Positions 1-35,506 of a DNA stretch of 64,000 nt are shown here, one piece after another. Every line of letters begins with the position of its first letter. The stretch's first letter is position 1. The stretch comes from a virus (taxonomy: Duplodnaviria > Caudoviricetes), in IMG/VR virus record IMGVR_UViG_2868569063_000004, positions 32,001 through 96,000 of that record. The stretch is one strand, 5' to 3'. The notes beneath the pieces are model-generated. The model did no database searches. It was not told where the DNA came from and saw nothing but the letters and a program-made list of their open reading frames with translations. The position numbers and the translations under genes are program-made.

Positions 1-3000
1 AGCGTGTACTTCTACATTTGCTCCTTTAGAATTTGCTGTACTTTGAGCTTGCATAAGCTCATCAAATTCTTCTTTATTGTTTACTTCGCAATCAACAACT
101 AATTTAGCTCCATTGGTAGGGGCAGATTCAATTAATTCGGTGGCCTTCTCAACATCCTCTTCACCATTAACTTCCATATCAATAGTAGCTGTAGTATCAG
201 ATGGCATAGATTCAATTGTAGATTTTGCTTGTTCAAAACTACCTTCATTAGAAACATCACAGTTTAAAGTTACAGTGGATCCAGAAACGTTTTGTAAGTT
301 TTCAATATCTGATTCTGCTTCACTGGTATCTGCTTCAACATCAACTTTTGCCGTTATGTCGTCATTTGACATTTTAAGCAATTGGTCTTCTGCAGTTTGT
401 ATATTATCAGTATCTACTAATTTAACTTTAGAATCAGTCTGAGCTTGCTGTAAAGTTTCAAAAGCTGCATTAGCATCTTGAGTAGCTTGATCCAGAGTGT
501 TATCCATGCCTTTTTGGTATAATTGGGTCTGGACATCCATTTCATTCTTAGCTTGCATAAAGTCTTGAGCAGCTTTTACAATACTAGAACTAGAATCGGC
601 TTGAGATATATCAGAGGAGTTATATTCTACGTCTTGCTCATGCGAAATAGCTCCTGTATACACAGTCTGGAGTTCTTCGCCACCAGTAATCTCTGGATGG
701 TATTTACCATCCCGATCTCTATACTTATCTACTTCTGTTCCTAAATCAGTTACTTGCTGATGAATAGAATCTAAATCAGTTGAATCAAAATCAAATTTAT
801 AAGTTTTTCCTGTGAGATCAGTTAATTCATTTTGAGCTTCTTTCGCTTCGGTAACTACAGAATCCAGATTTTTTGTTGCATCAGTAGTATCCGTATTAAC
901 CTTTAAAATACCTAAACCTTCAAGAGCAGTAAGAATCTGGTCTTTAGACAACTGAGTCTTATCTGCTAACTGTTGTATGGCATCTTCAGCCTGTTCCATA
1001 CCCTCAACATTATAAGCACCATCATTTAATTTGATGCCATCTAATTGTGTACGGTTATATTTAGAAAGGGTTTCAAATGACTTTTCAGTAGCGGCATCAT
1101 TTTCCTTATGTGCAGCAGTAAGAGCTTCTAATGAGTGTGTGTATTCAGCAACTCTGTCAGGATCATCACCTAATCCCATCTGTTCAGCAGTCTGTGGTTT
1201 CTCCCAAGACCCCTTAGTAGTTTCTTTAGAGGAATTACTACTTTTCTCAGAATCTTTTAATTTACCAGCTTCTTTTAAAGCCTCAATAACAGAACGAGCT
1301 TGGTCTTTAGTTAAACCGAGTTTTTCACATAAAGATTCAACAGCTTTTTCTGCATCACCTAATTCAGTGTCCCATTTACCATCATTGAAATCTATACCTT
1401 CTAACTGTTCAGAAGTATATTTTCCAAGAGTGTCTACTAAAGAAGTAACATCTGTGTTCTGTTCTTCATATGCTTTATTGATACCATCAAGAGCTGTAGT
1501 AACAGAAGCAGAATCTGTTATGATGCCATCCATTAATGAAGATACATCTGTTCCTAAAAGAGCTTCAACAGTTGTACCGGCAGAAGCAGCTAGCTCTTCT
1601 TGTTTAGCTTTTAATTGATTAATAGCTGCATTTCGCTGATCATTTGTCAATTGATCATTTTTTTGAACTCTTTTTATCTCTTCTTCGTAGGCTTGCGCTC
1701 CCATGGCAGATGAATTGAAATTATCAATAGCATTTTGAGCAGCATCTTCTGAATAAGACTCCATGTTATCATAGGTTTCTTTTAAATCCTGTTTATATTT
1801 ATTAACTTTATCCTCAGAAGCAGAAATAGCAGTAGTGTTAGTACTATCTGTATTTTTCAGTTCTTCGAGTCGTTTCTGTTCATCTGAAAGGGCAGAAGTA
1901 AGTTCTTGAGTTCTGTCTATACCTTCCTCTATAGATGATATAAAGTTATTATCAATACCATAATCACGAAGACGACCGAAGTTAGCACTCATGAATTCTT
2001 TGCTGATTCCCATTGATCGAGCGGCTTTACTCATATCATCTATGTCAAATGACCATCTTTTACTTGCATCATCATAAGATGCCATACCCTTAGATTTAAG
2101 ATCAGCTAAGAAATTATTAACACCTGTCTTATCTTCTGTGAGATATCTTACAGCTTTACCATAGTTCTCTGCAAAGTTTGCTCTATCATCTGAACCTGTA
2201 GGAGAAATAAGAGCGGCAAATGATTTAAAATCATCTGTACCTACAAGACCTTTATCATATGCATCTTTAGCATTCTTTAGTCCGGCGACAATGTTATTAT
2301 ATTTATCTCCGGCATTCTCCGTACTCTGGGCACGTTGCCACTGAGAATAATAGGAAAGAAGTTCCTGTTGCTGTTTCTTAGTTGCTTGCCATTCAGACTG
2401 AGATTGCATATAAGATAAATATTCGTTTCTAGCATCTTTTAATTTATCTTTTTCAGAATCATAGGCAGCTTTTTTATCATCTTCGTCTTCAGTTCCTTTA
2501 GCTTCTTTCCATGCTTTTTTTGCTTTATTTGTTACATCTGTTTGATCCTTAATAGCTTTGGTCTGTAACTTAATACCCTTTTCGAAATCTCCATCAGTGG
2601 CTTCAGCCTGATATTCCGTAAAGGTTTTCAAAGCATCTATGTTTAGTTTGATACCATCAGAAGTAGTGGTGAATAAATCATTAACATTTTGCTCAATGCC
2701 ACGAGGATCTTTCACATCTTTGAAAGCAGTAGAAAGGATCTTAACATTGTCTTTAGAAATTCCACCTGCAGAAGTAGTCTCTGTAAGAATAGTTCCCATA
2801 GAAGAAAGAGTAGACTTAGCAGTTGATACTTTCGTTTCCATTGAATCTAAAGAAACGGCTGCTTGATCACTCATATTTTTAGCTGCTTGTTTAGCCTTTT
2901 CGAATGCCGTATAAAATTCATCAATTGAACTTAAATCTTTATTATCAGTGATAACCTGTACAGCTATTTCAAGTTCATCTTGTGTAGCATTTTTTAGATC

Positions 3001-4740
3001 TTCTCTTACTTTTTCGGCATCGCCTTTAGTTTTGCTAGCCTTTGCTCCTTTCAGAGCATCTCTAACCCTATTAAGACTATCTTGATTCTCCCAAACAGTA
3101 TAAGCCTTATCATTGTCATCGTATTCAGTATGAGCAAAACCAAAAGCTTCGGCTAAAGTACCTTTAGTCCAGAAGTCGCTTTGAGAAATATCTGCTATAG
3201 ACTCAAGGACATCATCTCTTCTTGCAGCAAATTCTCTTACAGTTTCCTGGTCTTTAGGTTCCATTTCAAACAGTTGAGACCAAAGCTTTTGTTGATCTGG
3301 AGTAGCAGTAGCCATAGGGTTGACTACATTGTTACGGAGCCATGTGTCCATGTCTTTGCCGGATTCTTTAAAATTATTAAGCAATCTGGCATTGTCCGTA
3401 GAATTAAGCATATTATTCAACTGTGATTGAAATTCTGATGCTTTATCTTGATCGTCCCAGCTATCAAAAGAATCAATAGTACTTGCCATTGATTTGATAG
3501 AAGAAACCATTTCTCTTTTAGAGGCATCTATAGATTCTTGAGTATTAACTAAATTAGTATGAGCTTCTTGAAGTTCGCTATTATCTGAGTTTAAAACACT
3601 GGCAGCTTCACTATTAAGAAAATCTAACTGTTTACCATCAAATTCAAGAGTTATCTTTTGACCATCCGCAGATTGCTTATAACCTTTTATTGCTTTTCCA
3701 AATGTATTACCAAGTGCATCATATGCAGTTTGATCCAGTGTATAGGTGATGGTATCTTCTCCTTTTGTATGCTTTTTAAGCATGTCGGAAAATTTTTGTA
3801 CAGAATCAACTTTATATTTAGCTGCATCATATGCATTTTTGTATTCGTCTTGTTTGCCCTTATTCTCTCCTAAAGCAGTCTCATACCCTTTATACTGATC
3901 GCTAATATTTTTCTTTGTATCATAATAAGTAAGATTCCTCTGTAGCTTTAGATAATCATTGACCTGAGTGTTTAAATCCTCAGCATTAGTTCCTGCATTA
4001 AGAATAGCATTACCCTGAGAATCCCATGAACGTGTGAGACTAGGAGCAGCGGCAGCAATCTGATTACTCGTATCTAAGAAATCCTTATATTCATCATCTG
4101 TAAGACTAATATTTTTAATAGAATTACCGGATATTTTTACACCTTTGGACAATTCTGTGTATTTGGAAGTAAGTTCTCCAAGAGAAGCTTTCTGATCCTC
4201 ATAGGCTTTAGTTTGGGATTGAATGGATTCTTTTGCTTCTTGGCCTTTAGCAATTAAGTTCTCATTTTTATGAACGAAAGCGTCAATGCCTTTACCAAGC
4301 AATGAGAAAGCTCCTTGTACAAGCATTCCAACACCAGCAGAAATAAAAGCATTGCCAATCATTGAGAGACCAGCAGATGCCATACTTTTTAGACCATCGG
4401 ACCATTTGCCTTGTTTCTGTTGATCAGGTTTCTCCACCTCATTCTCTCTTTTAAAATCAGTGAGAGTCTTAGCATTAGTAGCTATTTGCTTGCCATAATC
4501 TTTGGCTCTTTGACTAGCATTCTTCGTTACTTCATTCGCTTTAGCCATACGTTGCTCGTTGTCTGTAATGGCCTGACCATTGTTATCAAGTTGCTTGTTA
4601 AGGTCTTTAAGAACTTCTAAATCATCTGAATATGCTTGATAATTTTTATTGGCTTCTGCATAGCCTTTTGCTATAGCAGCATTACGTTGAACTCTTCGTG
4701 ATTGTGGTAAAATTCCTCCATCTTCATTCTTGGCGAAAAC
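1..4740 (-). CDS. Tape measure protein, exon 2 (runs off window; absent from ORF track)
   Basis: Frame starts VFAKNEDGGILPQ at 4740; spot checks at 4380 (ASAGLSMIGNAFISAGVGML) and at 60-1 (ELMQAQSTANSKG) are open in the same frame. Ala/Ser/Lys-rich helical composition; no Shine-Dalgarno upstream; joins exon 1 in frame after splicing. Confidence 0.85.
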
Positions 4741-4758
4741 CAAACTGTGTGATATAAT
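4730..4758 (+). promoter_or_regulatory. Sigma-A-type promoter for intron cargo, straddling the 3' splice site
   Basis: TTGGCG-17 nt-TATAAT with extended -10 TG; upstream of SD AAGGA and ATG at 4803. Confidence 0.6.
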
Positions 4759-4802
4759 ATAGCAAATCTTAATTACTATATATAATAAAAAGAAGGAACA
4801 AT

Positions 4803-5309
4803 ATGGAAGAATTATTATTTTGCAATAAATGTGGAAAGACCAGTACATCTTCTTCTTATAAAATAGGGGATAGATGTTATACCTGTGAAATTGGAACCTA
4901 TATAGGCACTGGTATTGATTGGTCTACAGCATATATGGAGTTATCAAAAGAATATGAGAAAACTCATGACGGTCATTGTCCCAGTCATTTGGAATCATCT
5001 GAGATATTTAGGCAAAAATATTTTTATGGAAAGTTAGACAATGAAGTAGATTACTCTGCCGTTAAAAAAAGAAAATATAGTGAATCTCCTGAAGGAATAG
5101 AAGAGCAAAACAGGATAACAGATAGATGGTATGCCAAACAGAATGCTCAGAAATTCTCTACTGGGCCTAAGTGTCCAATCTGCGGCAGTACAAACCTTAA
5201 GAAAATCACTGGAACAAGAAAAGCAATGAAGATAGGTCTGTTTGGTCTTTTTGGAGCTGGTGACCTTGGTAAGACTTATCAGTGCTGTAAGTGTGGAGCT
5301 AGATTTTAA
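4803..5309 (+). CDS. Zinc-ribbon protein (intron cargo)
   Basis: 168 aa; CxxC pairs at the N-terminus and in the C-terminal PKCPICGS...YQCCKCG; SD present. Confidence 0.8.
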   Translation: MEELLFCNKCGKTSTSSSYKIGDRCYTCEIGTYIGTGIDWSTAYMELSKEYEKTHDGHCPSHLESSEIFRQKYFYGKLDNEVDYSAVKKRKYSESPEGIEEQNRITDRWYAKQNAQKFSTGPKCPICGSTNLKKITGTRKAMKIGLFGLFGAGDLGKTYQCCKCGARF

Positions 5310-6226
5310 TGAACATACCTGTAAATGCTAAAAGACAATTAGATAAAAGAGATATATATTGTATCTACCGGAGACCCAAAAAAGATAAAGATATATGCAC
5401 TTTACCTGATAGGCATTATTGTCAAATGTGTACGGCTAGACCACAGACAACATGTCGCTTAAAGGTTTCTCAGTATCGAAATGAACTAAATGCTCGCAAT
5501 AACAAAAAAGAATATCTTTTTGGTGTAGAAGTAGAACATGTTAGTAAAATTGATAAGAAGCTGAAACCAGCACAACATTCATTAAGCTCATTTACGGAAA
5601 GTTCTTCAAAAAATGCCAGTACAAGAACGTACAACTTGAATCATAATACTGTAGGCTCATATATTGATTATGGACCCAAATGGGATATTAAAAATTGGGC
5701 TGATTTTAAATATAAAGAAACCGTATATGTATTTAAGGGATTTTTGTATTGTGCAAAACATCATTCTGATTCATTGAGTCATGGACAAGTTATTATAAGA
5801 AATTTAAAAGGTACTAAAGAAAAGCATAGAGTAAATTTAATTTATTGTGCTAAGTGTAAAAAGTATTATATTGATGAAAGCCATTATAAAGATTTTATAA
5901 GACAGAAAGTATTGCTTGATTTTAGGATTAGGGCAAGCCATTCTCGTGGATATGGCTTTGGCGGATTCAAATCTGAATCTGAGTTACATCTTTATGGATA
6001 TAATGCACAAAGCTCTACACCTAAGTCGGTACGACAACAAGTTTTGTATGATGTTGTTTCCAATAGGTTAATGCGTGTAGAGGTTGTTATTTCACACTTA
6101 CAAGGACTCATTTCAATAAATGAATCAAGAAATGATAGAGCTACTGTTATCAAGCGCTACCGAGAAGATATGGATTTTTTATATGAGAAATTTCCAGGAG
6201 TAAGTATGGAATATAGAACCTTATAA
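5309..6226 (+). CDS. Hypothetical protein with Cys/His clusters (intron cargo)
   Basis: 305 aa; TAATG overlap with upstream gene; CQMC, CAKH and CAKC motifs. Confidence 0.75.
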   Translation: MNIPVNAKRQLDKRDIYCIYRRPKKDKDICTLPDRHYCQMCTARPQTTCRLKVSQYRNELNARNNKKEYLFGVEVEHVSKIDKKLKPAQHSLSSFTESSSKNASTRTYNLNHNTVGSYIDYGPKWDIKNWADFKYKETVYVFKGFLYCAKHHSDSLSHGQVIIRNLKGTKEKHRVNLIYCAKCKKYYIDESHYKDFIRQKVLLDFRIRASHSRGYGFGGFKSESELHLYGYNAQSSTPKSVRQQVLYDVVSNRLMRVEVVISHLQGLISINESRNDRATVIKRYREDMDFLYEKFPGVSMEYRTL

Positions 6227-6227
6227 C

Positions 6228-6332
6228 AAGAGCTTTAAATGTAATACGTGCGGATATACATAATGATAGTTTATGAGCAATTTAATCATAATCTGCCGGA
6301 AGTGCGGTTACACATGGTGGCTAAGAAGATAA
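6228..6332 (+). pseudogene. Two remnant C-termini of zinc-ribbon genes
   Basis: KSFKCNTCGYT* (6228-6263) and IICRKCGYTWWLRR* (to 6332) resemble the C-terminus of 4803-5309. Confidence 0.55.
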
Positions 6333-6863
6333 TTATGACAAATAAAATACTCTATCATCAATAATATCACATAATTTTTGTGTTTCAATTTCATTTTTTA
6401 ATAGGAAACATTTTCTTTTATCAAATATAAAGTAAAAGATTGTTTTAACATACAAGACAAAATATTTAAATTTTCTTGTAATAAATCTTTTATTCATATA
6501 AAGAGATGTTTTTATGAAACGAATTTTGCATTTGGAGGAAATATTTTTCATGGATGAATTCTTTCGTAAAATATTAAATGATTTTGTAGATGAGTATAAT
6601 CAACAGAATATATAAAATTTAATGAACTCACGTTCTGGATATACAAAGTTGTCGAATATTGTTATTATACTACTAGGTATATTATGGTTATAGGTGCTGC
6701 ATTATAACTCGCTGCACGATAATATACTTGATCATTTCTTTTGATCATGCAGAAGTGTTGGCATACATTCTGTATTGTTGATGCGGACGAAGAATCTGCC
6801 CGTTCTGGGCAATACACTTCCCCAATAAAGAAATTTATAAGGGAAGGGGGTGAAAAGAAGAAT

Positions 6864-7049
6864 ATGAATACTGGAATAATAATATCTCTTGGTAGTCTTT
6901 TACTTGTTGTAATATTAGCTGGTCTATATTATAACTCGAAAAATCATACCGTTGATCAAATTTGCAACCATCCAGAATTATCTGATGAGAAAGTCAAATT
7001 TATCACCGGAATGATGAAAAGACAATACAAGAATAAAAAAGTTGACTAA
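6864..7049 (+). CDS. Small single-TM membrane protein (intron cargo)
   Basis: 61 aa from MNTGIIISLGSLLLVVILAGLYY; G-rich SD; followed by hairpin at 7121. Confidence 0.65.
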   Translation: MNTGIIISLGSLLLVVILAGLYYNSKNHTVDQICNHPELSDEKVKFITGMMKRQYKNKKVD

Positions 7050-7120
7050 TCGCTAATAATGTTCTACTTTATCATTTAATTACTTCGTCATATGTATTTC
7101 TCTTTTTAAAATTTTTAATA

Positions 7121-7152
7121 GAAGGAGAACTGTCACAGCAGTTCTCCTTTCT
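7121..7152. terminator. Hairpin terminator between convergent cargo genes
   Basis: AAGGAGAACTG-tcacag-CAGTTCTCCTT. Confidence 0.65.
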
Positions 7153-7224
7153 GTGCACCAACACTTTGCATAATACTATAGGAAAGTTAACAATCTCGAC
7201 TGCATTGAATACAACCGAAAAAGA

Positions 7225-7395
7225 TTATTCGTATAAGTCATATCCTGGGAGTTGATTAGCAATTTCTTTTGGGTAATTACTGATAAATTTTGTTCTGCCA
7301 ATATCACTGATTTCTATAAGTAAATCTGTAATTTCGTTTGAGCTTAGATTTTGAATATATTCAGGAACTAATCTATCAAAAATGTTTTTATCCAT
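7225..7395 (-). CDS. Small hypothetical protein, 56 aa (intron cargo; not in ORF track)
   Basis: MDKNIFDRLVPEYIQ...GYDLYE*; SD AGGTG. Confidence 0.55.
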   Translation of the reverse strand: MDKNIFDRLVPEYIQNLSSNEITDLLIEISDIGRTKFISNYPKEIANQLPGYDLYE

Positions 7396-7440
7396 TAAAT
7401 ACACCTACTTTCAAAACTATATTATGGAGGTTTAAAGATT

Positions 7441-7551
7441 ATGGAAATATTAGAATGTCCTCTTTACAAAGAGTGTAAAGAAGAGGAATGTCCGTACTTT
7501 GAAAATGAAGATTGTACGTATTATACTAAGAAAGAGCAGGAGACTGAATAG
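7441..7551 (+). CDS. 36-aa Cys-rich peptide (intron cargo)
   Basis: MEILECPLYKECKEEECPYFENEDCTYYTKKEQETE*; SD GGAGG at 7426. Confidence 0.55.
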   Translation: MEILECPLYKECKEEECPYFENEDCTYYTKKEQETE

Positions 7552-7564
7552 TCTTTTGCTCTTT
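7531..7564. terminator. Possibly bidirectional terminator inside the intron cargo
   Basis: AAAGAGCAGGAGAC-tgaata-GTCTTTTGCTCTTT. Confidence 0.6.
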
Positions 7565-7659
7565 TGATGAATTTTGTAAGTATGTTTTATAAGTATCACA
7601 AGTAATACCTCTTATAACAGGAGAATCAATTATCTGACTTTTCTCTTTGCTAATAAACA

Positions 7660-8124
7660 TTAGCTCCAATTTACTCCCCATGATGTTACCTCCTCGAAAG
7701 TTATTTCTGGGAATATTTTCTGAACAACAGAAAAAGTAGTTAGTTTGACTTTTGTTTCATTTGTTTCTTGAAAATAGTAATGCACTAATTCTTCAATAAA
7801 TGCGAATAGTTGCATGTGTTGATTGTTAGATGTAATTATCCGTTCCATGGAGTATACTAAAAAAGACATACATCTTCCATAAGTGGTTGCTTCATTTTCG
7901 GTGACAGAAAAACTGCCATCTTTTGTAAATATTAGACTTACAGGAAATAATTTAGTAGGATCAATATTTTTTTCATATAAATGTTTGCTTAAGGATTCTA
8001 ATCCTTTAGTAAACAAATTGGCCAGTTCCTTTGACATTTCATAAGTTGCATTCATAAATAAGCATCCGTCAAAATATGGCGGAGCAATTGGTGCATAAGT
8101 TCTGATAGAATTATTTATTATCAT
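7660..8124 (-). CDS. Hypothetical protein, possible metallopeptidase-like fold (intron cargo)
   Basis: 154 aa; SD AGGAGG; EELVH resembles a degenerate HExxH motif. Confidence 0.7.
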   Translation of the reverse strand: MIINNSIRTYAPIAPPYFDGCLFMNATYEMSKELANLFTKGLESLSKHLYEKNIDPTKLFPVSLIFTKDGSFSVTENEATTYGRCMSFLVYSMERIITSNNQHMQLFAFIEELVHYYFQETNETKVKLTTFSVVQKIFPEITFEEVTSWGVNWS

Positions 8125-8586
8125 AGTTTTACCCTCCTATGTGAAATATAGCATAGAAGAATAATAAAGTAAAGATTTGTGCTTACATCACCTTTGCACA
8201 TAAGGTAAGATTGCTCACAAGAATAAGATGTATTTACCCTTTAATTTATTCGGCGTAAGCTGCCTAACAGTCCTGACTATTCCTTCTTGATCCGGAGACC
8301 AAGTTCCCATTATAGTCGATGAACGTTCTTCTCTATAAAATAAAGAAGCTTCGCTGCAGACCACCCATATATATACATTGTTACTATATCTATTACATTA
8401 CTGTAGTAGGGGAGTAGTATATACTTCGGTTCACCCTGAATGCCAAATTAAAAGCATTTCTCTATTCCTTCGAATAAAGACAGTTTCGGTTGTTTGCTTA
8501 GTAACCCCTTTCTCATATGAGATCGTTCCGTGTCACCACCAGGTTACATGGGGCGTTTTCTAAAGGACCAACTGATAATTTGTCCC

Positions 8587-11118
8587 ACCCCAGTTCATAG
8601 CATGGCTAACAAGCATACCGCCGACTCCGGCTAAGGATTTATTAAGTCCCAAACCATTTAAGAGCCCTACAGCGCCGTTGCCAACATCAAGCAATCCTTT
8701 AAAAGTATTAGTACTACCTTCTGATTGCCATAACTGTGACCAAGATTCTTTAATTTTAGTTGTTTTTGCTTCGATAGAATCAAGGTATGTATTAAGCTCG
8801 TTCTGAGCTGAATTTTGATAATTATTTGCGGAATCATTATAAACATCTGTAAGCAATTCAGGATGCTGCAATATGGATGCAAGAATATTACTTCTATTTT
8901 TTCCTGCCATCATTTCAAGCAGAGCAGCCTGTCTATTCTGACCATCTGCCAAATCTTGCTTACCAATATCATCCCAAACCTGAGAGATATCTTTTAAAAT
9001 ATCATAAGTATCTCTATAGTTTCCATTCATATCAAGAATAGAAACTCCAGCCTTACCGTTAACGGCAGTAAGAGATTTAATATTTGAATTAAGTTTAGAA
9101 GTGGTCTCTACAAGACCTTCTGTATCTTCACCCATAGAAGATAATTCTTCAGCAGAAGTGCCTCTAAGTCGTAATGCAATTGTTCTAAGACCAGCACCTA
9201 CCTTCGATGGATCCTGCACTACACTATTTGCTGCCGTAACAAGAGCAACTGACTTGTCAAAGTCGTTCCCCGCTGCTACCAATGCTGAACCTGAATCCTG
9301 TAAAGCAGTGGCAATTCCGTCTGTAGAAATTGCATAGTTGTTACCAACAAGATTCATTTTATCAACGAGATCCATAGAATCATCAACTTTTACGTCGTAT
9401 GCTTTCATCATGGAAATCATAGCGGTTGTTGCATCATCTATAGATCCGAATTCTGATACATTTTTTAAAATACCTGTATTTTTAGCTAAAGTCTGAGATT
9501 CATTTAAGCTATATCCAAGACGAGAAAAATCAGCAGCACTACTAGTAATCTGAGTGGTTGTACTACCAATGTCTTTGGCATCAGTTCTAGCCTGAGTAGT
9601 AAAGTCTCTATATTCTTGTTTTGTACCATCTGATGTTTTCTTAAGTTCAGTCATCGCTGAATCTAATTCTTTTATTGATTCGACACCGGATCTGACACCT
9701 GTTGTTAATGCTTGGAATCCAAAATTACTTACAAGATACTGGCTAAGACTACGGAACTTTTGTCCCATTTCAGAAATATAACTAGATAAAGGTTTTACAC
9801 TTTGAGTAACTTTAGTAAGAGATTGGTCAATATTACCTGGACCATTTTTATATGCTAATTGATATTTTTCAAATACACCAGACCCTCTATCAATAGTAGC
9901 ATACATTTTACCTTGTGCTGCATTAAACTCTGTTGTGTATTTGCTTCCTTTTGCCAGATCTGCTGACATTTGTTCCATCTTAAGACGGACCTTATCAGAT
10001 GCTGGATCTAAATCTGTACCAATATATTCTGAACGGCTATATTTATTTGGAATACGTGAGAAAAACTGATTAGTATTACCGAGATACCTAGCTTGACGAT
10101 TGGCTTCAGAGCGAAGAGCAGCAAAACGTACTTGCTCAGTGTCTCTTTCGTCTCCAGTAAGAGTCGCAAGACTATCACGAGATTTTTTTAATTGCTCATA
10201 TGTATCATTGAAAGATTTTAATCTTTCATCATAACCTTGTCCTAGAGTTTTATCTAATGGTTTACCATTGTTAGGATTATATACTTGAGCCATTTTATTG
10301 AATGTCTTCTGTTTCTCACCCAAATTAGTGATAACTTTGTCGTATTCTGAAGCACTCTGAGTCATTGCTTTGTATGCTTCTTGATTCTTAGCCTGTGCTC
10401 CTCGAATGTCAGATGCAGAAGTAACCCAATCAGAAGCAGTACCTTGATTTTGTATCTGTCTAGCCAGCTGAGAATTTCTATGTCCTATAGTTCTCTTTGA
10501 CTGTTTATAAGTACTTTCATCAATAATCCCACTTACATACTGTTCCTGTAGGGTTCCTATTGTCTTCATATTTCTCTTAATTTCAGCTTGAGCTTGTCTA
10601 AGAGTAATGCCTGTAGATCTTGCAGTATTAGAAGAACTAGTGGTTTCTCCAACAACTATTTTACCGTCTTTAGTTTTTATATTGTCTCCAACAGTAAGCT
10701 TAATAGAGCCCATGTTTTTAGCTGTAGATTTTATTTCATTAAGTTTGGCTAAAAGTCCATCAAGCTCCCCCATAATACCTTGATTTACGGAAAGTTTTAC
10801 TTCTCCTAGATCAAGCTTGTCCTGGTACCTTGACAGCTTACTGACTGTATTAGCCATAGATTTTAAAGCTTCTTCAGGATTTACCATCTGTTCTACAAGA
10901 TTAGATCCTTTAATAACAGGAGTATTTTTAGCGGCTTTGGCAGTTGCTTTACTTATTGTTTTTACCGCTGTCTGTGCATTTTTAGTTAACTGTTTAGTAT
11001 TACCTAATTCCACACCTAGTTTAATGTGCTTCTCTTTTAAAGAATTAATTCGTGTTTCTAATGCATTTAGCGCACTGTCTTCAACTTCTACACCAACGTT
11101 TATTATATAATCAGCCAT
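8587..11118 (-). CDS. Tape measure protein, exon 1 (844 codons; TP901-type core)
   Basis: ELDSAMTELKK...DFSRLGYSL...KVGAGLRTIALRLRG core; follows the tail genes. Unspliced ORF runs 8 codons into the intron. Confidence 0.92.
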
Positions 11119-12755: not shown

Positions 12756-12822
12756 TTAATTCCTCCGAAAAAAAATAAGGGGAAACTGCAAAAATAGTGC
12801 GGCTTTCCCCTCAATAAAATAT

Positions 12823-26116: not shown

Positions 26117-26257
26117 GTATTTGTAGACTCAAAAGGCTCATTATCTGTTGCAATCAGAGACAAAACCTTCTAATAAACCTAATCCATGCGTATACACATC
26201 TCATAGTAAAACTTATCTACTTGTTTTATGGAATTTTGATTTAATTTGTCAACCTCA

Positions 26258-26339
26258 TGGGAGAAGAGTGATTCGAACACTCAAAGCAATTGCAACGGTT
26301 TTACAGACCGCCGTAGATCTCCATCTCTACCGTTCTCCC
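26258..26339 (-). tRNA. tRNA-Tyr(GTA)
   Basis: Cloverleaf with CT-GTA-AA loop, long variable arm, TTCGAAT. Confidence 0.85.
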
Positions 26340-26342
26340 GGA

Positions 26343-26426
26343 CGTTGCGTTAGGGATTCGAACCCCAGAGGCTTTTACACCCAGACAGTTTTCAGGACTG
26401 CACCCTCGACCTACCGGACACGCAAC
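26343..26426 (-). tRNA. tRNA-Ser(TGA)
   Basis: Cloverleaf with CC-TGA-AA loop, long variable arm, G73. Confidence 0.85.
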
Positions 26427-26637
26427 ATTAATCTGTCTTTCCAGATTGTCAGGCCGCCCCGCAGCCATTTCCTAATTATAAGTAAAAGGCAGGAGAGTAA
26501 TCCTGCCTTTCAACCGGAATCAATCCGGTTATCTTTATATTCATGATATGCTACAATCACATAACCAAGAGTTACATGGTAGGATTTTCACCTACGAATT
26601 CCCACAGGAGGTGGGCTGTAATCTACATATCTTGTAA

Positions 26638-26811: not shown

Positions 26812-26883
26812 CATCCGGTACGGGAATTGAACCCATGTTACTGCATTGAAAGCGCAGTGTCTTAACCGCTAGACTAACCGGAC
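26812..26883 (-). tRNA. tRNA-Glu(TTC)
   Basis: Cloverleaf with CT-TTC-AA loop and GGTTCAATTCC. Confidence 0.88.
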
Positions 26884-30914: not shown

Positions 30915-31793
30915 TTACATATGCCTTTTTTCTCTATGTTTAGCGACTCTTTGACGAGTTTTTTCTAAATCAATAATATTTTGGCATTCAGAACAAAGCG
31001 TAGAACGATTATTCTTGGACATTGTAAAAAATTCTTTGCCACAACAATCACACGTAATAAGTTTTGTTTCATCTTTAGCATTTTTACTCTGGCAGTCGGT
31101 ACAATAAGGATTCCTTGCTTTGGAACTTTTCACCTTGTACGGCTTCCCGCAGCGTTTACACAGCTTTATCTTAGACTTCGGACCCAAGTTCTGATATTGA
31201 TAGCCCAATTCACGCATATCTGTAATTTTAAGTACCGGATCAGACTCATTATCAACAAATGTGATTCTTATATTGAAGCGAGTTATCTTCTTGCTCACTT
31301 CAACCAAACCAACTTCTTTTAAGTCGTAGATCATATGTGGACGATCATCCACTTTACAGGCAACTCTGGCGAGCTTAAACCACATTTCCATAGGATAGTT
31401 GATCCAATTATTGTTAGTTTCAGATTTCAAATTATTGAACTTTGCAATGACCAAGAGTGTGAACACAAGTCTTTCCCTGGCGGGGTTTTTGATTTCCTTG
31501 ATAGTATCTAACTCTTTCTGCGTAATAGGTATATAGTCAATGTTCAACAGGTCTCTTTTTTTGGCTTTACTGATACATTTATCTATAAATGAATACCAAG
31601 CATTAATATCAAATTCTGGTACGACTTTTGATACAAATTCTTCTATATTATTATATATTTCTTTCTGTGTATACTTTTCCTGATACATATATCTTGTTAG
31701 AAGCGCTATGACTGAACCTAAGTCTTTAGGATTAAATTCACCTAGCTCTAACATCCTTTCAACATATTCTTTCTCATTGAGTATTAAATCCAT
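30915..31793 (-). CDS. Hypothetical protein with C-terminal Zn fingers, coupled to RNAP
   Basis: Start MDLILNE; four CxxC pairs. Confidence 0.75.
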   Translation of the reverse strand: MDLILNEKEYVERMLELGEFNPKDLGSVIALLTRYMYQEKYTQKEIYNNIEEFVSKVVPEFDINAWYSFIDKCISKAKKRDLLNIDYIPITQKELDTIKEIKNPARERLVFTLLVIAKFNNLKSETNNNWINYPMEMWFKLARVACKVDDRPHMIYDLKEVGLVEVSKKITRFNIRITFVDNESDPVLKITDMRELGYQYQNLGPKSKIKLCKRCGKPYKVKSSKARNPYCTDCQSKNAKDETKLITCDCCGKEFFTMSKNNRSTLCSECQNIIDLEKTRQRVAKHREKRHM

Positions 31794-32866
31794 TCTCTTT
31801 CTCCTTCCATGTAAACTTTTTTCATAGTAAAATGTTCTCCGCAATATTCTATATCCCCAGATGGATCCTTTACTGGTATTTGAGCATATCCTTCAGTACG
31901 TGAGAGAAGATTTTTGATAATAGTATCTCCTGACATTTCCCAGATAAAAGATTTTCCTTTTTTAGAACTGTATCCTAAATCAACAAGGATATTGCAGAGT
32001 TTCTCTGGATCAGATACATATTCAGCGCATTCAATTTTAAATGCTTTATTATATGAAGCAGAAAAAGCATCTGTTTTTGTGGTACAGGATCTGTTCATTT
32101 GTTTATTGAATTTATCATATATGCGTTCTATAAGTACTTTATCCTTATTTGTGTAGGTGGCATCTGACTTCAGAATAGAACTGTCAAACGGTACCTTACT
32201 TTCTTTTACATCAGCCAGTGTTTTCTCAATTTCCCAACAGAGTTCATTGACTACACAGGTTTCTGCATTGACTGGATAGAATTCTTTATAGAATTTGAGA
32301 AACTCTGCCTGTTCTTCAGTCAACTCTTGTGATGACAGCAGCTCTTCCAGTGGGATGTTAAACCTGGACCTGCTCACGGCGTCTGATGTTTTGATGTAGT
32401 CTTTGTATTCCTTCATGAGAGTAGGGTAGTTGTAGATGAAGAAATATGGCTTCTTATCTGCACAAATTCTCTGATTGAATTCCTTCTTAGTTATTTCTTC
32501 TGGTGTATCTGTTTCTTCTATACGGTTGTAGCTATTGTCATACCAATGTTTTGGCATAGGTTTAGCGATGATTCCTTTAGCTTTATCAATAGAGTTCTGT
32601 TGGAACAGCTGCCCACACAATATCCTGTAGTCTAAGACTTTATATTCCTCACTGTCTTTCGGGAACCTTGCCTGTAAGCATATCTGTGAAGTGATAACAT
32701 TAGTAATAGGACCAATCGCATCACCGAAAGAACCTTTATTAGCTTGTATCATATCTGTTTCAGTCGGAACTACCTTGTTTCCTTTACGTTGGATGCAATA
32801 GATTGGCGGTAGGTTTTCTGTATGTTTTAATAAGATAGTATTGTTAGTAGTAAACATTAAGTCTCC
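31784..32866 (-). CDS. YonO-like RNA polymerase, exon 2
   Basis: Begins GGA GAC (GD) after omega-G, completing NGADCD-GD; QNSIDKAKG motif. Confidence 0.88.
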   Translation of the reverse strand, partial: GDLMFTTNNTILLKHTENLPPIYCIQRKGNKVVPTETDMIQANKGSFGDAIGPITNVITSQICLQARFPKDSEEYKVLDYRILCGQLFQQNSIDKAKGIIAKPMPKHWYDNSYNRIEETDTPEEITKKEFNQRICADKKPYFFIYNYPTLMKEYKDYIKTSDAVSRSRFNIPLEELLSSQELTEEQAEFLKFYKEFYPVNAETCVVNELCWEIEKTLADVKESKVPFDSSILKSDATYTNKDKVLIERIYDKFNKQMNRSCTTKTDAFSASYNKAFKIECAEYVSDPEKLCNILVDLGYSSKKGKSFIWEMSGDTIIKNLLSRTEGYAQIPVKDPSGDIEYCGEHFTMKKVYMEGEREWI

Positions 32867-33859
32867 CGACTTAACACCTTATGTTTCCATAAGGACTAGA
32901 CTATATCTTCATCTGTAGCTCTATCACCAAGATACAGATGCTCGGCACTTCCCCTGCGAGGATTCCACTCACAAGGTACTCTACTTGCTTCTTTACTTAA
33001 GTATTTCTCTTAAGCTATGCTTTCGATAGTCGTTAAACTTTTCTCATTATTGAGACTTAGCACAGTATTGTCTTTGGAAAAATAGTATGTGTGTTTATAT
33101 ATGTTACCTGTTTCTATATAATATGGGATTCTTCCTGCTAGACCTGCCGGAGATGAAGAAGAGTGCAGTTGTTTCAACACATATTCTGCGCATAACTGCA
33201 TGTATGGAAAAGTTGCTATTACATTTTTGTCTTTATCTAACAAACATACTGGAATAGCTCTTCCATTCTGTCCTCCGGGACGAGATTGTTTTTCTTTTGA
33301 ATATGCAGGATCAGCTTTGTACTTCTGACTGAGTGTGGTGTTTCCGTAGTTGGGATTTTTCTTGCCACTATAATCTAACGTCTGCGAAGCATGTCTGCCA
33401 GCAGCGAGAGTATAGTCAATATTTTCTTTATGTGAACACCATTCTAAGTTATCTACACTGTTGTTTGTGCGATTGTAATCTTTATGATTTACTTCCGGTA
33501 AATTTAAAGGATTAGGGATAAATGCTTTTGCTACTAATCTATGAACACTGGCAACTGTTCTGTTTCCTGTTTTACCGACAGTAATACACATGTACCCATC
33601 TGAATTCATACGTTGTTTTATTTCCTGATGATATTTCGCTCTACCACGATTATGAGTACTAAATATTTTTCCATCTTCACGAACTATGTAATCAATACCT
33701 TTTACATTTAAAATTCTTTCTTCTATTGTTCTCACCTTCTTTTTTATAATCTATTTTTCCAATAAGAGTTCCACTGTTAGCCCGGTACTTCCGGACACCT
33801 TACATTTGTAAGTTCACCGAGTTTTACATATACATCGCTGTATAAGGTGACAGAGTTTT
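32867..33859 (-). ncRNA. Group I intron (993 nt) in the RNA polymerase gene
   Basis: P1 GUGAU/GUCAC with U-G; P7 strands at 33031-33026 and 32904-32899 (AAGAUAUAGUCU); P9 CCUUAUG-GAAA-CAUAAGG; terminal G. Confidence 0.92.
33010..33735 (-). CDS. Intron-encoded HNH homing endonuclease
   Basis: VHRLVAKAFIPNP...VNHKD...NNSVDNLEW; 3' end overlaps the intron core. Confidence 0.92.
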   Translation of the reverse strand: MRTIEERILNVKGIDYIVREDGKIFSTHNRGRAKYHQEIKQRMNSDGYMCITVGKTGNRTVASVHRLVAKAFIPNPLNLPEVNHKDYNRTNNSVDNLEWCSHKENIDYTLAAGRHASQTLDYSGKKNPNYGNTTLSQKYKADPAYSKEKQSRPGGQNGRAIPVCLLDKDKNVIATFPYMQLCAEYVLKQLHSSSSPAGLAGRIPYYIETGNIYKHTYYFSKDNTVLSLNNEKSLTTIESIA

Positions 33860-35506
33860 ATCACAATCAGCTCCATTAAGAGCTTCTTTAGTACTATCCC
33901 ATGAGTTTAACAACATACATGTGTTTATATATCTATACCAATAAGTCATATCAGGAGTCCCTACTATCTTAAGCTTACGCACATTGTATTTGCTTGTCAT
34001 AGGTGCTCTGAAGCAGCAGACCTCGCTGACTCCTCGATCAAGCCAATGTTTATGCCAGCATTCCCCAGCGTGGAGTAATCCTGTGACCGGTAAACCAAAG
34101 ATACTCTGCATCAAGCTATACGGATCCCCTCCAATGATGGCAAAGTTACCCCTCACTTTGAGTACACCAATCTTGGCCTGTCTGATTTTTTTCTTTATCA
34201 TATTGTAGATTCTGTCTCTGATGTAAGGATCATGAATCATCTGTGGCTCAATCATGAGAGCATTGATATACGGTTCTTCATCAATATAGGAATCTTCTGT
34301 AAGATTTGTTCCTCTCAGAAATAGGAGTGACTTCCTGTAATCTAATCCAAGGATTTCTTGAATTTCTTCTACTGTAGGACGGACCAATTCAGTTACTTCT
34401 TCCGGTGTAAGGTGGTAATTCTGCAGGAACTGGTAATTTGTGCTTCTGTACTCATCAAGTCTTGCAGGAGCAGTCTTGGCTATAGATATTTGATAATGAT
34501 ATTTTTCTATATTGGACCAGTAATCTTCGAAAGAAGAGTAGGAATCCCATAATTTAAGCATAGAAGTAGTAATAATCAGTTCAGACTCTCTGATATCTCT
34601 CATATCTCCCCAGGCATCTTTTATATAGAAGTTTTTCGCTATAGATTCCCCAAAAGCTAAGTAATCCATTGTGAAAACCATGCCCTTTGTCCATGGAAGT
34701 CCTCTGAGATTACAGCCAGATAAAAAATCTTCTTCTTCGTCAAGCTCTCTTGCCCAACGGTAAGAGAGTGATGGAAGCATGATTCCGTAACCGTCTGATT
34801 CCATAAGCTCTATTTCTTGATCCTTGAGGAACTCTACTATTGGTTCATCAGACTGAGAGTCATCTACACGAATAATGTCTTCTGTGAAATGAGTAATGCA
34901 GTCAGGAACGACTATGATCCCTTTTGGCATACTTACTGGAATACTACCGGAACAGATCAGTGCCTGGTACGCTTCAAGTTTAGCTGGCACAAATTTTTGT
35001 TCTAGGTTCCTACCGCAACAGAGACGCTCATAGAGCTGGGGATATAGCCTTTCAGAGACATAAACAATAGTAGAATTCTTTATGCCCCCGTTGGTGCCTA
35101 GGAGTCTGTGATATTTTATTCCATTGATAGAAAAGCCTTTATTGGCTCTGTTATAATCAGACATTTTATCAATGATCAGACACATGTAATCTGGAACAAA
35201 TTGAAGATTATAGAATCTTTTATAGAGATTTGCTATGAGAGTATCTTTCTTAGAAGAATCAGATTTTTTGAGACGCTTGATTTCTTTCTTTATATAAGAA
35301 GCTTCTTCTTCTCTGGCTTCACTGGTGTCTCCGTTGAGTTCATCAATGAATCTGAGAATCTGGCTATCAGACAGAGAAATAATGTCTTCTGTGTTTAGAG
35401 CTTCCTCTAATGGATATTCTAGCTTCCAGCGTGATCTGCGAAGACGTTCACTGTGGAGCTTGAATAAGTATCTTTTACATTTTTTCTGCTTTGCTATTGT
35501 AATCAT
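33860..35506 (-). CDS. YonO-like (cellular RdRP-fold) single-subunit RNA polymerase, exon 1
   Basis: SDGYG, FRAP and LNGADCD motifs; spliced product about 909 aa. Confidence 0.88.

What the first reader, a model, noticed from the sequence alone, without database searches (positions are those of the whole stretch)
7121..7564. Terminators inside the intron raise the possibility of trans-splicing or antitermination
Two strong hairpins (7121-7152, 7531-7564) sit between convergent cargo genes and could stop a minus-strand transcript before exon 2. Either the phage YonO-like polymerase reads through them, or exon 1 + core and the 37-nt intron tail + exon 2 are separate RNAs that assemble through the clamp, P9.0 and P10. 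The second option would be a bipartite, trans-splicing group I intron in a phage. This is a hypothesis only.
Basis: inference. Interest (0 to 1): 0.7.

Follow-up and report, generated by a model that had tools for sequence, protein, structure and literature searches.

The report
Cargo-gene terminators inside a phage intron
The two hairpins are real, but they look like stop signals for accessory genes nested (mostly backwards) inside a giant self-splicing intron of a gut prophage's tape-measure gene, so ordinary read-through by the phage's own polymerase explains them better than a two-piece trans-splicing intron.

Summary
Both hairpins exist at the stated coordinates and are among the strongest in the window: dG -23.4 and -24.8 kcal/mol on the + strand, z -5.7 and -5.3.

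They do not face the intron transcript. Hairpin 2 (7530-7565) is a canonical + strand terminator, with a 16-bp stem and a U run. On the minus strand, three G.U pairs become A.C mismatches, dG falls to -15.4, and there is no U tract. Hairpin 1 (7121-7152) is symmetric and has no U tract on either strand.

The 3846-nt group I intron (8586..4741, minus strand) is well supported. In all 17 related viral loci the space between the ribozyme core and the 37-nt tail holds a mosaic cargo. That cargo always contains an antisense operon. Its promoter spans the 3' splice site, and a hairpin-2 ortholog ends it.

Exons are collinear in every relative. The late operon upstream holds better sense-strand terminators, such as a hairpin plus U8 at 12812-12770. 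The phage encodes a YonO-like polymerase.

My odds:
- Continuous transcription and cis-splicing: about 0.8.
- Trans-splicing: about 0.05. It is not excluded, because no RNA data were available.

Earlier notes from this scan on the same genome reached the same intron model.

The parts
7121..7152 (.). Hairpin 1. A symmetric stem-loop between convergent cargo genes, with no U tract on either strand. Probably a bidirectional stop or insulator for cargo transcripts.
   Evidence: dG -23.4 (+) and -20.8 (-). Conserved in relatives that carry this module, with changes confined to the loop (L004).
7530..7565 (+). Hairpin 2. A canonical + strand intrinsic terminator with a 16-bp stem (3 G.U pairs), a GAAU loop and a U run. 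On the minus strand the G.U pairs become A.C mismatches.
   Evidence: An ortholog is found in 7 of the 8 relatives scanned (not called in L015) and is always stronger on the + strand. In short-cargo relatives it abuts the intron core.
4741..8586 (-). Group I intron, 3846 nt, splitting the tape-measure gene.
   Evidence: P1 UGGGGU/GCCCCA with a U.G pair at the 5' splice site. P10 GAAAAC/GUUUUC. Terminal G at 4741. R and S elements plus P8 and P9; RF00028 17.1 bits, E 0.052, in a local search. The unconstrained fold of core plus tail recovers P1, P2, P6, P7, P8 and P9.
8176..8586 (-). Ribozyme core (P1 to P9.2), conserved at 96-99% in all relatives. Homology breaks at 8176.
8549..8560 (-). Internal guide: GAAAAC (P10 arm) followed by GCCCCA (P1 arm).
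4741..4777 (-). 37-nt 3' tail of the intron, ending in the terminal G. It overlaps the -10 box of the + strand promoter.
4730..4758 (+). Sigma-70-like promoter TTGGCG-17-TGnTATAAT for the antisense cargo operon. It spans the 3' splice site.
   Evidence: It is retained in all three diverged tail/exon-2 types, including L019, which has lost the clamp pairing.
4803..5309 (+). 168-aa double zinc-ribbon protein. This is the constant antisense cargo gene next to the 3' splice site.
   Evidence: A 149-168-aa antisense ORF at this position in every relative.
5309..6226 (+). 305-aa Cys-rich cargo protein. The module 5310-6620 is absent from every relative fetched.
6864..7049 (+). 61-aa hydrophobic cargo protein, upstream of hairpin 1.
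7441..7551 (+). 36-aa Cys-rich ORF with an RBS. Its stop lies inside hairpin 2.
7225..7404 (-). Sense-strand cargo ORF: 59 aa from a GTG start (7404), 56 aa from the first ATG (7395). It converges on hairpin 1.
7526..8124 (-). Sense-strand cargo ORFs of 154 aa (phrog_33355, unknown function) and 51 aa. The module 8176-7543 is absent from about half of the relatives.
8587..11118 (-). Tape-measure exon 1 (844 codons), ending ...HAMNWG.
1..4740 (-). Tape-measure exon 2, starting VFAKNEDGG. It runs off the window; the ORF is about 2750-2880 aa in relatives.
12770..12812 (-). Canonical sense-strand terminator (10-bp G+C-rich stem plus U8) inside the late operon, 1.7 kb upstream of the tape-measure start.
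34001..35143 (-). Region homologous to SPbeta YonO (single-chain late RNA polymerase).
   Evidence: tblastn E 7e-20, 26% identity over 398 aa

Best explanation
The two hairpins are the transcription stops of accessory ('moron'-like) genes lodged in the peripheral region of a group I intron, between P9.2 and the 37-nt 3' tail.

The constant part of this cargo is an operon that runs antisense to the intron. It starts at a host-type promoter that straddles the 3' splice site. It ends at hairpin 2, or in the window's longer version at hairpin 1. This keeps host-polymerase transcripts from running backwards into the ribozyme core and the late genes. Hairpin 2 is built for the + strand. Hairpin 1 sits between convergent cargo genes.

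During lytic growth, the late transcript is probably made by the phage's YonO-like polymerase. It runs straight through the cargo, the tail and P10 pair with the guide, and the intron splices in cis to give one tape-measure protein (...NWG|VFAKNEDGG...).

Shown here: the hairpins, their strand asymmetry, the cargo architecture in relatives, the splice-site pairings, and the presence of a YonO homolog.
Inferred: which polymerase reads through, and that splicing happens.
For: 1. Strand asymmetry. Hairpin 2 is -24.8 kcal/mol with a U run on the + strand, against -15.4 and no U tract on the minus strand. In all six other relatives where the scan called an ortholog it is stronger on the + strand (-14.8 to -20.8, against -11.1 to -14.7).

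2. Architecture in 17 relatives. The intron is 1711-3846 nt. Core, hairpin-2 ortholog, antisense zinc-ribbon gene and + promoter are constant, while the other modules come and go. In the two shortest (L012, L015) every ORF of 40 aa or more is antisense, two genes in all, and the operon is closed by hairpin 2 right next to the core.

3. In relatives the second antisense gene is a HEPN protein (PF18736, E 4e-16 and 1e-17). This is typical of defence or toxin cargo expressed from a prophage.

4. The + promoter is kept in all three diverged tail/exon-2 types.

5. Among the intron cargos scanned (the window and eight relatives), none has a canonical sense-strand terminator. The upstream late operon does have them: 12812-12770 plus U8, and 19400-19384 plus U6 and 26512-26483.

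6. A YonO homolog is present. [quoted passage not shown] The paper's authors note that the msRNAP flap domain is needed for hairpin-dependent termination and suggest that YonO lacks most such msRNAP domains (PMC5467207). That SPbeta region holds annotated sense stem-loops and the antisense genes yomL and yonI.

7. Splicing is needed and plausible. P1 and P10 are intact and in frame across exon-2 variants only 67-70% identical. The junction G|VF matches a G-[VIL]-F motif in uninterrupted homologs. There is no conserved start codon or RBS for exon 2.
Against: - No RNA evidence of any kind. No RNA run holds the stretch.
- Hairpin 1 is almost as stable on the minus strand (-20.8 kcal/mol).
- In some short-cargo relatives the hairpin-2 ortholog is followed by a U-rich stretch on the sense strand too (L016, 5 U in 8). 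Partial sense-strand termination by a host-type polymerase is therefore possible.
- YonO's behaviour at intrinsic terminators has not been measured directly.
- Promoters of YonO-type enzymes are unknown, so an internal late promoter cannot be ruled out.
- The intron scores below Rfam's threshold (17.1 against 50 bits).
Confidence: 0.8

Rival explanations
1. Bipartite trans-splicing. The late transcript ends in the cargo (at hairpin 2 or hairpin 1). A second RNA starts upstream of the tail. The two RNAs assemble through the clamp, P9.0 and P10.
For: - The core is complete before the cargo. Only 37 nt plus exon 2 are needed from the 3' piece.
- The tail can pair with the loop of the last core hairpin and the bases after it (-17.9 kcal/mol, z about -2.5).
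- A natural trans-spliced group I intron broken between P9.1 and the 3' end exists in a mitochondrion (PMC3873408).
- In short-cargo relatives a hairpin sits directly after the core.
Against: - Exons are collinear, on the same strand and 1.7-3.8 kb apart in all 17 relatives that reach exon 2. Natural cases were recognised by scattered exons.
- The hairpins are weaker and lack U tracts on the sense strand.
- No conserved sigma-70-like minus promoter lies upstream of the tail. The only candidate (4889-4860, 9 of 12 matches) lies in sequence not conserved in the diverged relatives.
- The clamp is lost in L019 (-6.4 kcal/mol) and not better than shuffles in the L004 type. The + promoter alone explains the conservation of that sequence.
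- A stop here would also cut off every tail gene downstream.
Confidence: 0.05
2. Attenuation. The intron is cis-spliced, but the hairpins (mainly hairpin 1) stop part of the sense transcripts. This would lower the dose of exon 2 and downstream tail genes, or shut off leaky host-polymerase transcription in lysogens.
For: - Hairpin 1 is -20.8 kcal/mol on the minus strand.
- Sense-strand cargo ORFs with a sigma-70-like promoter at 8145-8117 would need a stop.
- T4 mobE has an internal terminator that stops about 30% of transcripts without harming the downstream gene (PMC2988022).
Against: - No U tract follows either stem on the minus strand.
- A tape-measure protein needs both exons in equal amounts.
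- Relatives without hairpin 1 keep the same intron.
Confidence: 0.1
3. The intron no longer splices. The tape-measure function is supplied by two separate polypeptides, or the prophage is defective, and the hairpins are simply terminators between independent genes.
For: - Gene callers annotate the two halves as separate proteins.
- Rfam scores the core below threshold.
- P3 and P4 as I could draw them are short or carry a mismatch. This rests on my reading of the sequence.
Against: - No conserved start codon or RBS precedes exon 2. The codon before GTT is TTG, CTG or ACG in the three types.
- P1, P10 and the terminal G are kept while neighbouring sequence diverges by 30%.
- The tail tolerates indels while the frame is exact from GTTTT onward.
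- The core is 96-99% conserved.
- The lineage is abundant in metagenomes, with hundreds of contigs.
- The junction is collinear with uninterrupted homologs.
Confidence: 0.04

Closest known systems
Phage 'morons': accessory transcription units with their own promoter and terminator, inserted between late genes of temperate phages (concept from lambdoid phages; cited from my own knowledge)
   Same: Own sigma-70-like promoter, own intrinsic terminator, presence or absence varying between close relatives, and opposite or independent orientation within a late operon.
   Different: Here the units sit inside a self-splicing intron. The promoter overlaps the 3' splice site and the first codons of exon 2.
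SPbeta late operon transcribed by YonO (PMC5467207)
   Same: The genome encodes a YonO homolog and a very long tape-measure gene, as SPbeta does. The SPbeta region has sense-strand stem-loops and the antisense genes yomL and yonI, each with its own stem-loop, yet is reported as one transcript.
   Different: The SPbeta tape-measure gene yomI has no intron. YonO's response to terminators was not assayed directly. The homolog here is only 26% identical and is itself split by an intron.
T4 nrdD (sunY) group I intron with I-TevII (PMC2988022; the layout 'core, then ORF, then short 3' terminal segment' is from my own knowledge of Michel et al. 1992)
   Same: The coding insert lies downstream of the catalytic core. 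A short remote 3' segment carries the splice site. The intron holds internal promoters.
   Different: One sense-strand homing endonuclease in about 1 kb, against 2-7 ORFs (up to 3.4 kb), mostly antisense, with terminators. No homing endonuclease is recognisable here.
Trans-spliced mitochondrial group I introns, especially Prasinoderma Pr.rnl.2 (PMC3873408)
   Same: The candidate break point (between P9.x and the 3' end) coincides with the place where cis relatives carry their ORF.
   Different: In those cases the exons are scattered or on opposite strands, and trans-splicing was shown by RT-PCR. Here the exons are collinear in every genome and no RNA data exist.
T4 mobE internal terminator (PMC2988022)
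   Same: A terminator associated with a mobile element sits inside an essential transcription unit and is tolerated.
   Different: The T4 downstream gene has its own promoter. It is not an exon that must be ligated.

Membership tests
Intrinsic (Rho-independent) terminator | Stable G+C-containing stem-loop | tested here: met
   Both hairpins: z -5.3 to -5.7 on the + strand, with 0 of 200 shuffles as stable.
Intrinsic (Rho-independent) terminator | U tract directly after the stem, on the strand being terminated | tested here: not met
   Judged for the minus (intron) strand: 4 of 8 U after hairpin 2 and 2 of 8 U after hairpin 1. On the + strand, hairpin 2 meets the feature and hairpin 1 does not.
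Intrinsic (Rho-independent) terminator | Position just downstream of a gene on the same strand | tested here: met
   Hairpin 2 overlaps the stop of the + ORF 7441-7551. In L012 and L015 it closes the antisense two-gene operon. Hairpin 1 follows the + ORF 6864-7049 and the minus ORF 7404-7225.
Group I intron | P1 with a U.G pair at the 5' splice site, and a guide that also pairs with exon 2 (P10) | tested here: met
   UGGGGU|G pairs with GCCCCA. GAAAAC pairs with GUUUUC, or with GUUUUU (a wobble) in the diverged type. The splice is in frame.
Group I intron | Conserved core (P7 from the R and S elements, P8, P6, P9) and a terminal G | tested here: met
   R-like GTTCATCGACTATAA and S-like AAGGAATAGTCAGG. 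The same elements occur in other phage introns (L042-L051). The MFE fold recovers the helices. A G is conserved at 4741.
Group I intron | Score at or above the curated Rfam threshold for RF00028 | tested here: not met
   17.1 bits against 50, E 0.052, and only in a 451-nt search. For comparison, the second intron of this phage scores 43.3 bits.
Group I intron | Self-splicing, or a ligated exon RNA | not testable with these tools
   No RNA run holds the stretch.
Trans-spliced (bipartite) group I intron | Exons encoded at separate loci or in separate transcription units | tested here: not met
   Collinear, same strand, 1.7-3.8 kb apart in the window and in the 17 relatives that reach exon 2.
Trans-spliced (bipartite) group I intron | Own promoter for the 3' piece | tested here: inconclusive
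   No conserved sigma-70-like minus promoter upstream of the tail. Promoters of YonO-type polymerases are unknown (PMC5467207).
Trans-spliced (bipartite) group I intron | Conserved inter-piece pairing that rebuilds the intron | tested here: inconclusive
   The clamp is -17.9 kcal/mol (z -2.5) in the window type, not better than shuffles in the L004 type, and lost in L019.
Prophage moron | Own promoter and terminator, with variable presence among close relatives | tested here: met

The most novel reading that the evidence does not exclude
The intron works in two pieces during infection. The late transcript ends at the hairpin that follows the ribozyme core. A second transcript carries the 37-nt tail and exon 2. 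The two join through loop-tail pairing and P10. This would be the first natural trans-splicing group I intron outside organelles.
Probability: 0.05. Interest if true: 0.85.

Novelty: new variant of a known kind. Interest (0 to 1): 0.35.

Why it matters
Taken alone, the hairpins are ordinary terminators. The setting is unusual. Independent, mostly antisense transcription units, each with promoter and terminator, are nested inside a self-splicing intron of an essential late gene. One promoter is written across the 3' splice site.

If read-through is confirmed, the locus would be a natural test of how a YonO-type polymerase handles intrinsic terminators. It would also test how a group I ribozyme holds its 5' exon while 1.3-3.4 kb of foreign genes are transcribed before the 3' splice site appears.

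It also shows that an intron can serve as a safe landing pad for prophage accessory or defence genes, such as the HEPN proteins in relatives.

Tried and rejected
- RNA evidence: the look-up of sequencing runs listed no RNA holder. The single run listed is of unknown kind and kept as contigs, so I did not lay reads on it.
- Rfam at gathering threshold and over 4.6 kb gave no group I hit. Only a 451-nt search gave a sub-threshold hit.
- Megablast of the region against the phage collection found no match. tblastn found only distant SPbeta-like tape-measure genes, which do not resolve the junction.
- I first considered splice sites near 8617-8624 and 4763-4776, and P3 = CCCAT/ATGGG. I rejected them because no guide pairs there. 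Two of the three candidate 3' sites (G4776, G4763) are not conserved in the diverged relatives, and the third, the conserved G4768, puts L019 out of frame.
- Searching for a compact, cargo-free copy of this intron with two core patterns found only the same lineage, plus unrelated introns that share R, S and P9.
- The search for uninterrupted close relatives (>90% identity) found none; the best uninterrupted homologs are about 50-57% identical.
- An extra pairing of the tail's last bases with AACCGAAACUG in the MFE fold cannot form with the L016-type tail sequence, so I treat it as chance.
- PADLOC gave no hit for any cargo protein. Pfam, PHROGs and the Atlas gave no function for the 154-, 168- or 305-aa proteins.

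Full report
**Context**

The window is bases 32001-96000 of a 122,874-base IMG/VR provirus record. On the minus strand, a tape-measure gene is split in two.
- The first ORF is 11118..8560. It matches tape-measure profiles, phrog_4211 at E 1.5e-64.
- The second ORF runs from 4848 off the window. In relatives it is about 2750-2880 aa.
- One near-identical exon-2 protein is recorded from Ruminococcus sp. AM40-10AC.

**The intron**

The hairpin finding presupposes the intron, so I rebuilt it independently.
- On the minus strand, exon 1 ends ...AAC TGG GGT at 8587.
- The intron segment GAAAAC-GCCCCA (8560-8549) pairs its 3' half with UGGGGU. This gives the U.G pair at the 5' splice site.
- Its 5' half pairs with GUUUUC, the first six bases of exon 2 at 4740-4735.
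- The base before exon 2 is G4741.
- The intron is therefore 8586..4741, or 3846 nt.

The core has R-like and S-like elements (GTTCATCGACTATAA and AAGGAATAGTCAGG), plus P8, P6 and P9. Rfam RF00028 matches only below threshold (17.1 bits, E 0.052), and only when a 451-nt stretch is searched. An unconstrained fold of core plus tail, with the cargo removed, recovers P1, P2, P6, P7, P8, P9 and P9.1. Other phage introns share the same R-P8-S-P9 block.

The spliced protein reads ...HAMNWG|VFAKNEDGG.... Uninterrupted homologs at 50-57% identity carry a G-[VIL]-F...D..G motif at the corresponding place.

Three diverged versions of the tail and exon-2 start, 67-70% identical, all keep the following:
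- the G;
- GTTTTC, or GTTTTT (a wobble in P10);
- the reading frame from that point on.

The tail itself tolerates indels. The codon before GTT is TTG, CTG or ACG, so there is no conserved start for a separate exon-2 protein. Splicing, in cis or in trans, is therefore needed.

**The observation**

Both hairpins exist.

| | + strand | minus strand |
|---|---|---|
| Hairpin 1 (7121-7152) | -23.4 kcal/mol, z -5.7 | -20.8 kcal/mol, z -3.5 |
| Hairpin 2 (7530-7565) | -24.8 kcal/mol, z -5.3 | -15.4 kcal/mol |

(All values.) Only about ten 50-nt segments of the + strand in the whole 64-kb window reach -21 kcal/mol, and these are two of them.

The orientation matters.
- Hairpin 2 has a 16-bp stem with three G.U pairs, followed by a U run. 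The scan calls it a terminator on the + strand only. On the minus strand the G.U pairs become A.C mismatches, and four U follow in eight bases.
- Hairpin 1 is nearly symmetric but has no U tract on either strand.

**Relatives**

Seventeen related viral loci were fetched. All keep the core at 96-99% identity and all keep an interruption. Intron length ranges from 1711 to 3846 nt.

The region between 8176 and the tail is a mosaic.
- About half of the relatives lack 8176-7543, which holds the 154-aa and 51-aa sense ORFs.
- All fetched relatives lack 6620-5310, which holds the 305-aa gene.
- Some carry other genes instead.

The constant elements are as follows.
1. An antisense 149-168-aa ORF next to the 3' splice site, the counterpart of the window's zinc-ribbon gene.
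2. A + strand promoter (TTGGCG or TTTTCA, 17 nt, TGnTATAAT) spanning the tail and the first codons of exon 2.
3. A hairpin-2 ortholog.

In L012 and L015, every ORF of 40 aa or more in the cargo is antisense. It is a two-gene operon that starts at that promoter and ends at the hairpin-2 ortholog, which there directly abuts the last core hairpin. In L012 and L018 the second gene of that operon is a HEPN protein (PF18736, E 4e-16 and 1e-17). Wherever the scan called a hairpin-2 ortholog it is stronger on the + strand (-14.8 to -20.8, against -11.1 to -14.7). No cargo that I scanned contains a canonical sense-strand terminator.

One caveat applies. In L016 the ortholog is followed by 5 U in 8 on the sense strand as well, so some bidirectional activity is possible.

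**Is read-through plausible?**

The same late operon, upstream of the tape-measure gene, contains more canonical sense-strand terminators.
- A 10-bp G+C-rich stem plus U8 at 12812-12770, between two late genes.
- 19400-19384 plus U6, and 26512-26483.

Whatever polymerase reaches exon 1 has probably already passed better terminators, unless internal promoters exist.

The genome encodes a YonO homolog (tblastn E 7e-20). [quoted passage not shown] The authors point out that the flap domain of multi-subunit enzymes is needed for hairpin-dependent termination, and suggest that YonO lacks most such domains (PMC5467207). The SPbeta record annotates sense-strand stem-loops and the antisense genes yomL and yonI, each with its own stem-loop, within that region. 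Direct termination assays for YonO are not reported there, so this step is inference.

**Is trans-splicing supported?**

- All natural trans-spliced group I introns described are organellar. They were recognised by scattered exons. One is broken between P9.1 and the 3' end (PMC3873408), so the geometry proposed here has a precedent.
- Here, however, the exons are collinear in every genome.
- No conserved sigma-70-like minus promoter precedes the tail.
- The proposed clamp is only modestly better than shuffles in the window type (-17.9 kcal/mol, z -2.5). It pairs GGUGAUGUAA, in the loop of the last core hairpin, with UUAUAUCAC in the tail, plus two short blocks.
- The clamp is not better than shuffles in the L004 type. 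It is lost in L019 (-6.4 kcal/mol), which keeps a perfect TTGGCG-17-TATAAT promoter on the other strand.
- The conservation of that tail sequence is thus explained by the promoter.
- No RNA run holding the stretch was listed, so neither model can be tested directly.

**Verdict**

Its reading as a barrier to the intron transcript is weak. The hairpins are best explained as terminators or insulators of moron-like cargo nested in the intron, acting mainly on antisense, host-polymerase transcripts.
- Continuous late transcription with cis-splicing: about 0.8.
- Partial attenuation: about 0.1.
- Trans-splicing: about 0.05.
- A dead intron: about 0.04.

The nested, partly antisense transcription units, with a promoter across the splice site, are an unusual variant of known things. 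The trans-splicing idea remains an untested long shot.

Noticed in passing
window 32877-33292 (-), ORF 33010-33735 (-), flanking ORFs 33824-35506 and 31784-32857 (-): The YonO-like polymerase gene is itself split by a second group I intron (RF00028 43.3 bits, E 1.9e-9, just under threshold). This intron carries an HNH_3 endonuclease ORF (E 7e-8). The phage's own late polymerase therefore seems to depend on splicing.
   Followed up: partly
L012:11944-12495 (-), L018:12710-13306 (-): In relatives, the second antisense cargo gene inside the intron is a HEPN-domain protein (PF18736, E 4e-16 and 1e-17), paired with the zinc-ribbon gene. It may be a defence or toxin cassette. There was no PADLOC hit.
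   Followed up: partly
L020:10882-12843: One relative has a further insertion of about 1.9 kb in tape-measure exon 1, at window position 9040-8855. It carries a 377-aa multi-HTH protein. There was no Rfam hit, so its nature (intron, free-standing endonuclease or other) is unknown.
   Followed up: partly
proteins P0244-P0358: Many distant tape-measure ORFs stop within about 10-115 residues after the same hydrophobic segment, often after a GGR[AV]K-like motif followed by unrelated tails. This suggests the position is a recurrent interruption hotspot in tape-measure genes of related phages.
   Followed up: no
window 4730-4758: One 29-bp stretch serves as the + strand promoter, the intron tail and the first codons of exon 2. 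The -35 box lies in GCC AAG of exon 2, and the -10 box lies in the tail.
   Followed up: yes
window 26148-26546 (+) with hairpins at 26483-26530: Another + strand ORF, with hairpins on both strands, sits inside the minus-strand late region next to a tRNA gene (26812-26883). It is a second antisense island in the late operon.
   Followed up: no
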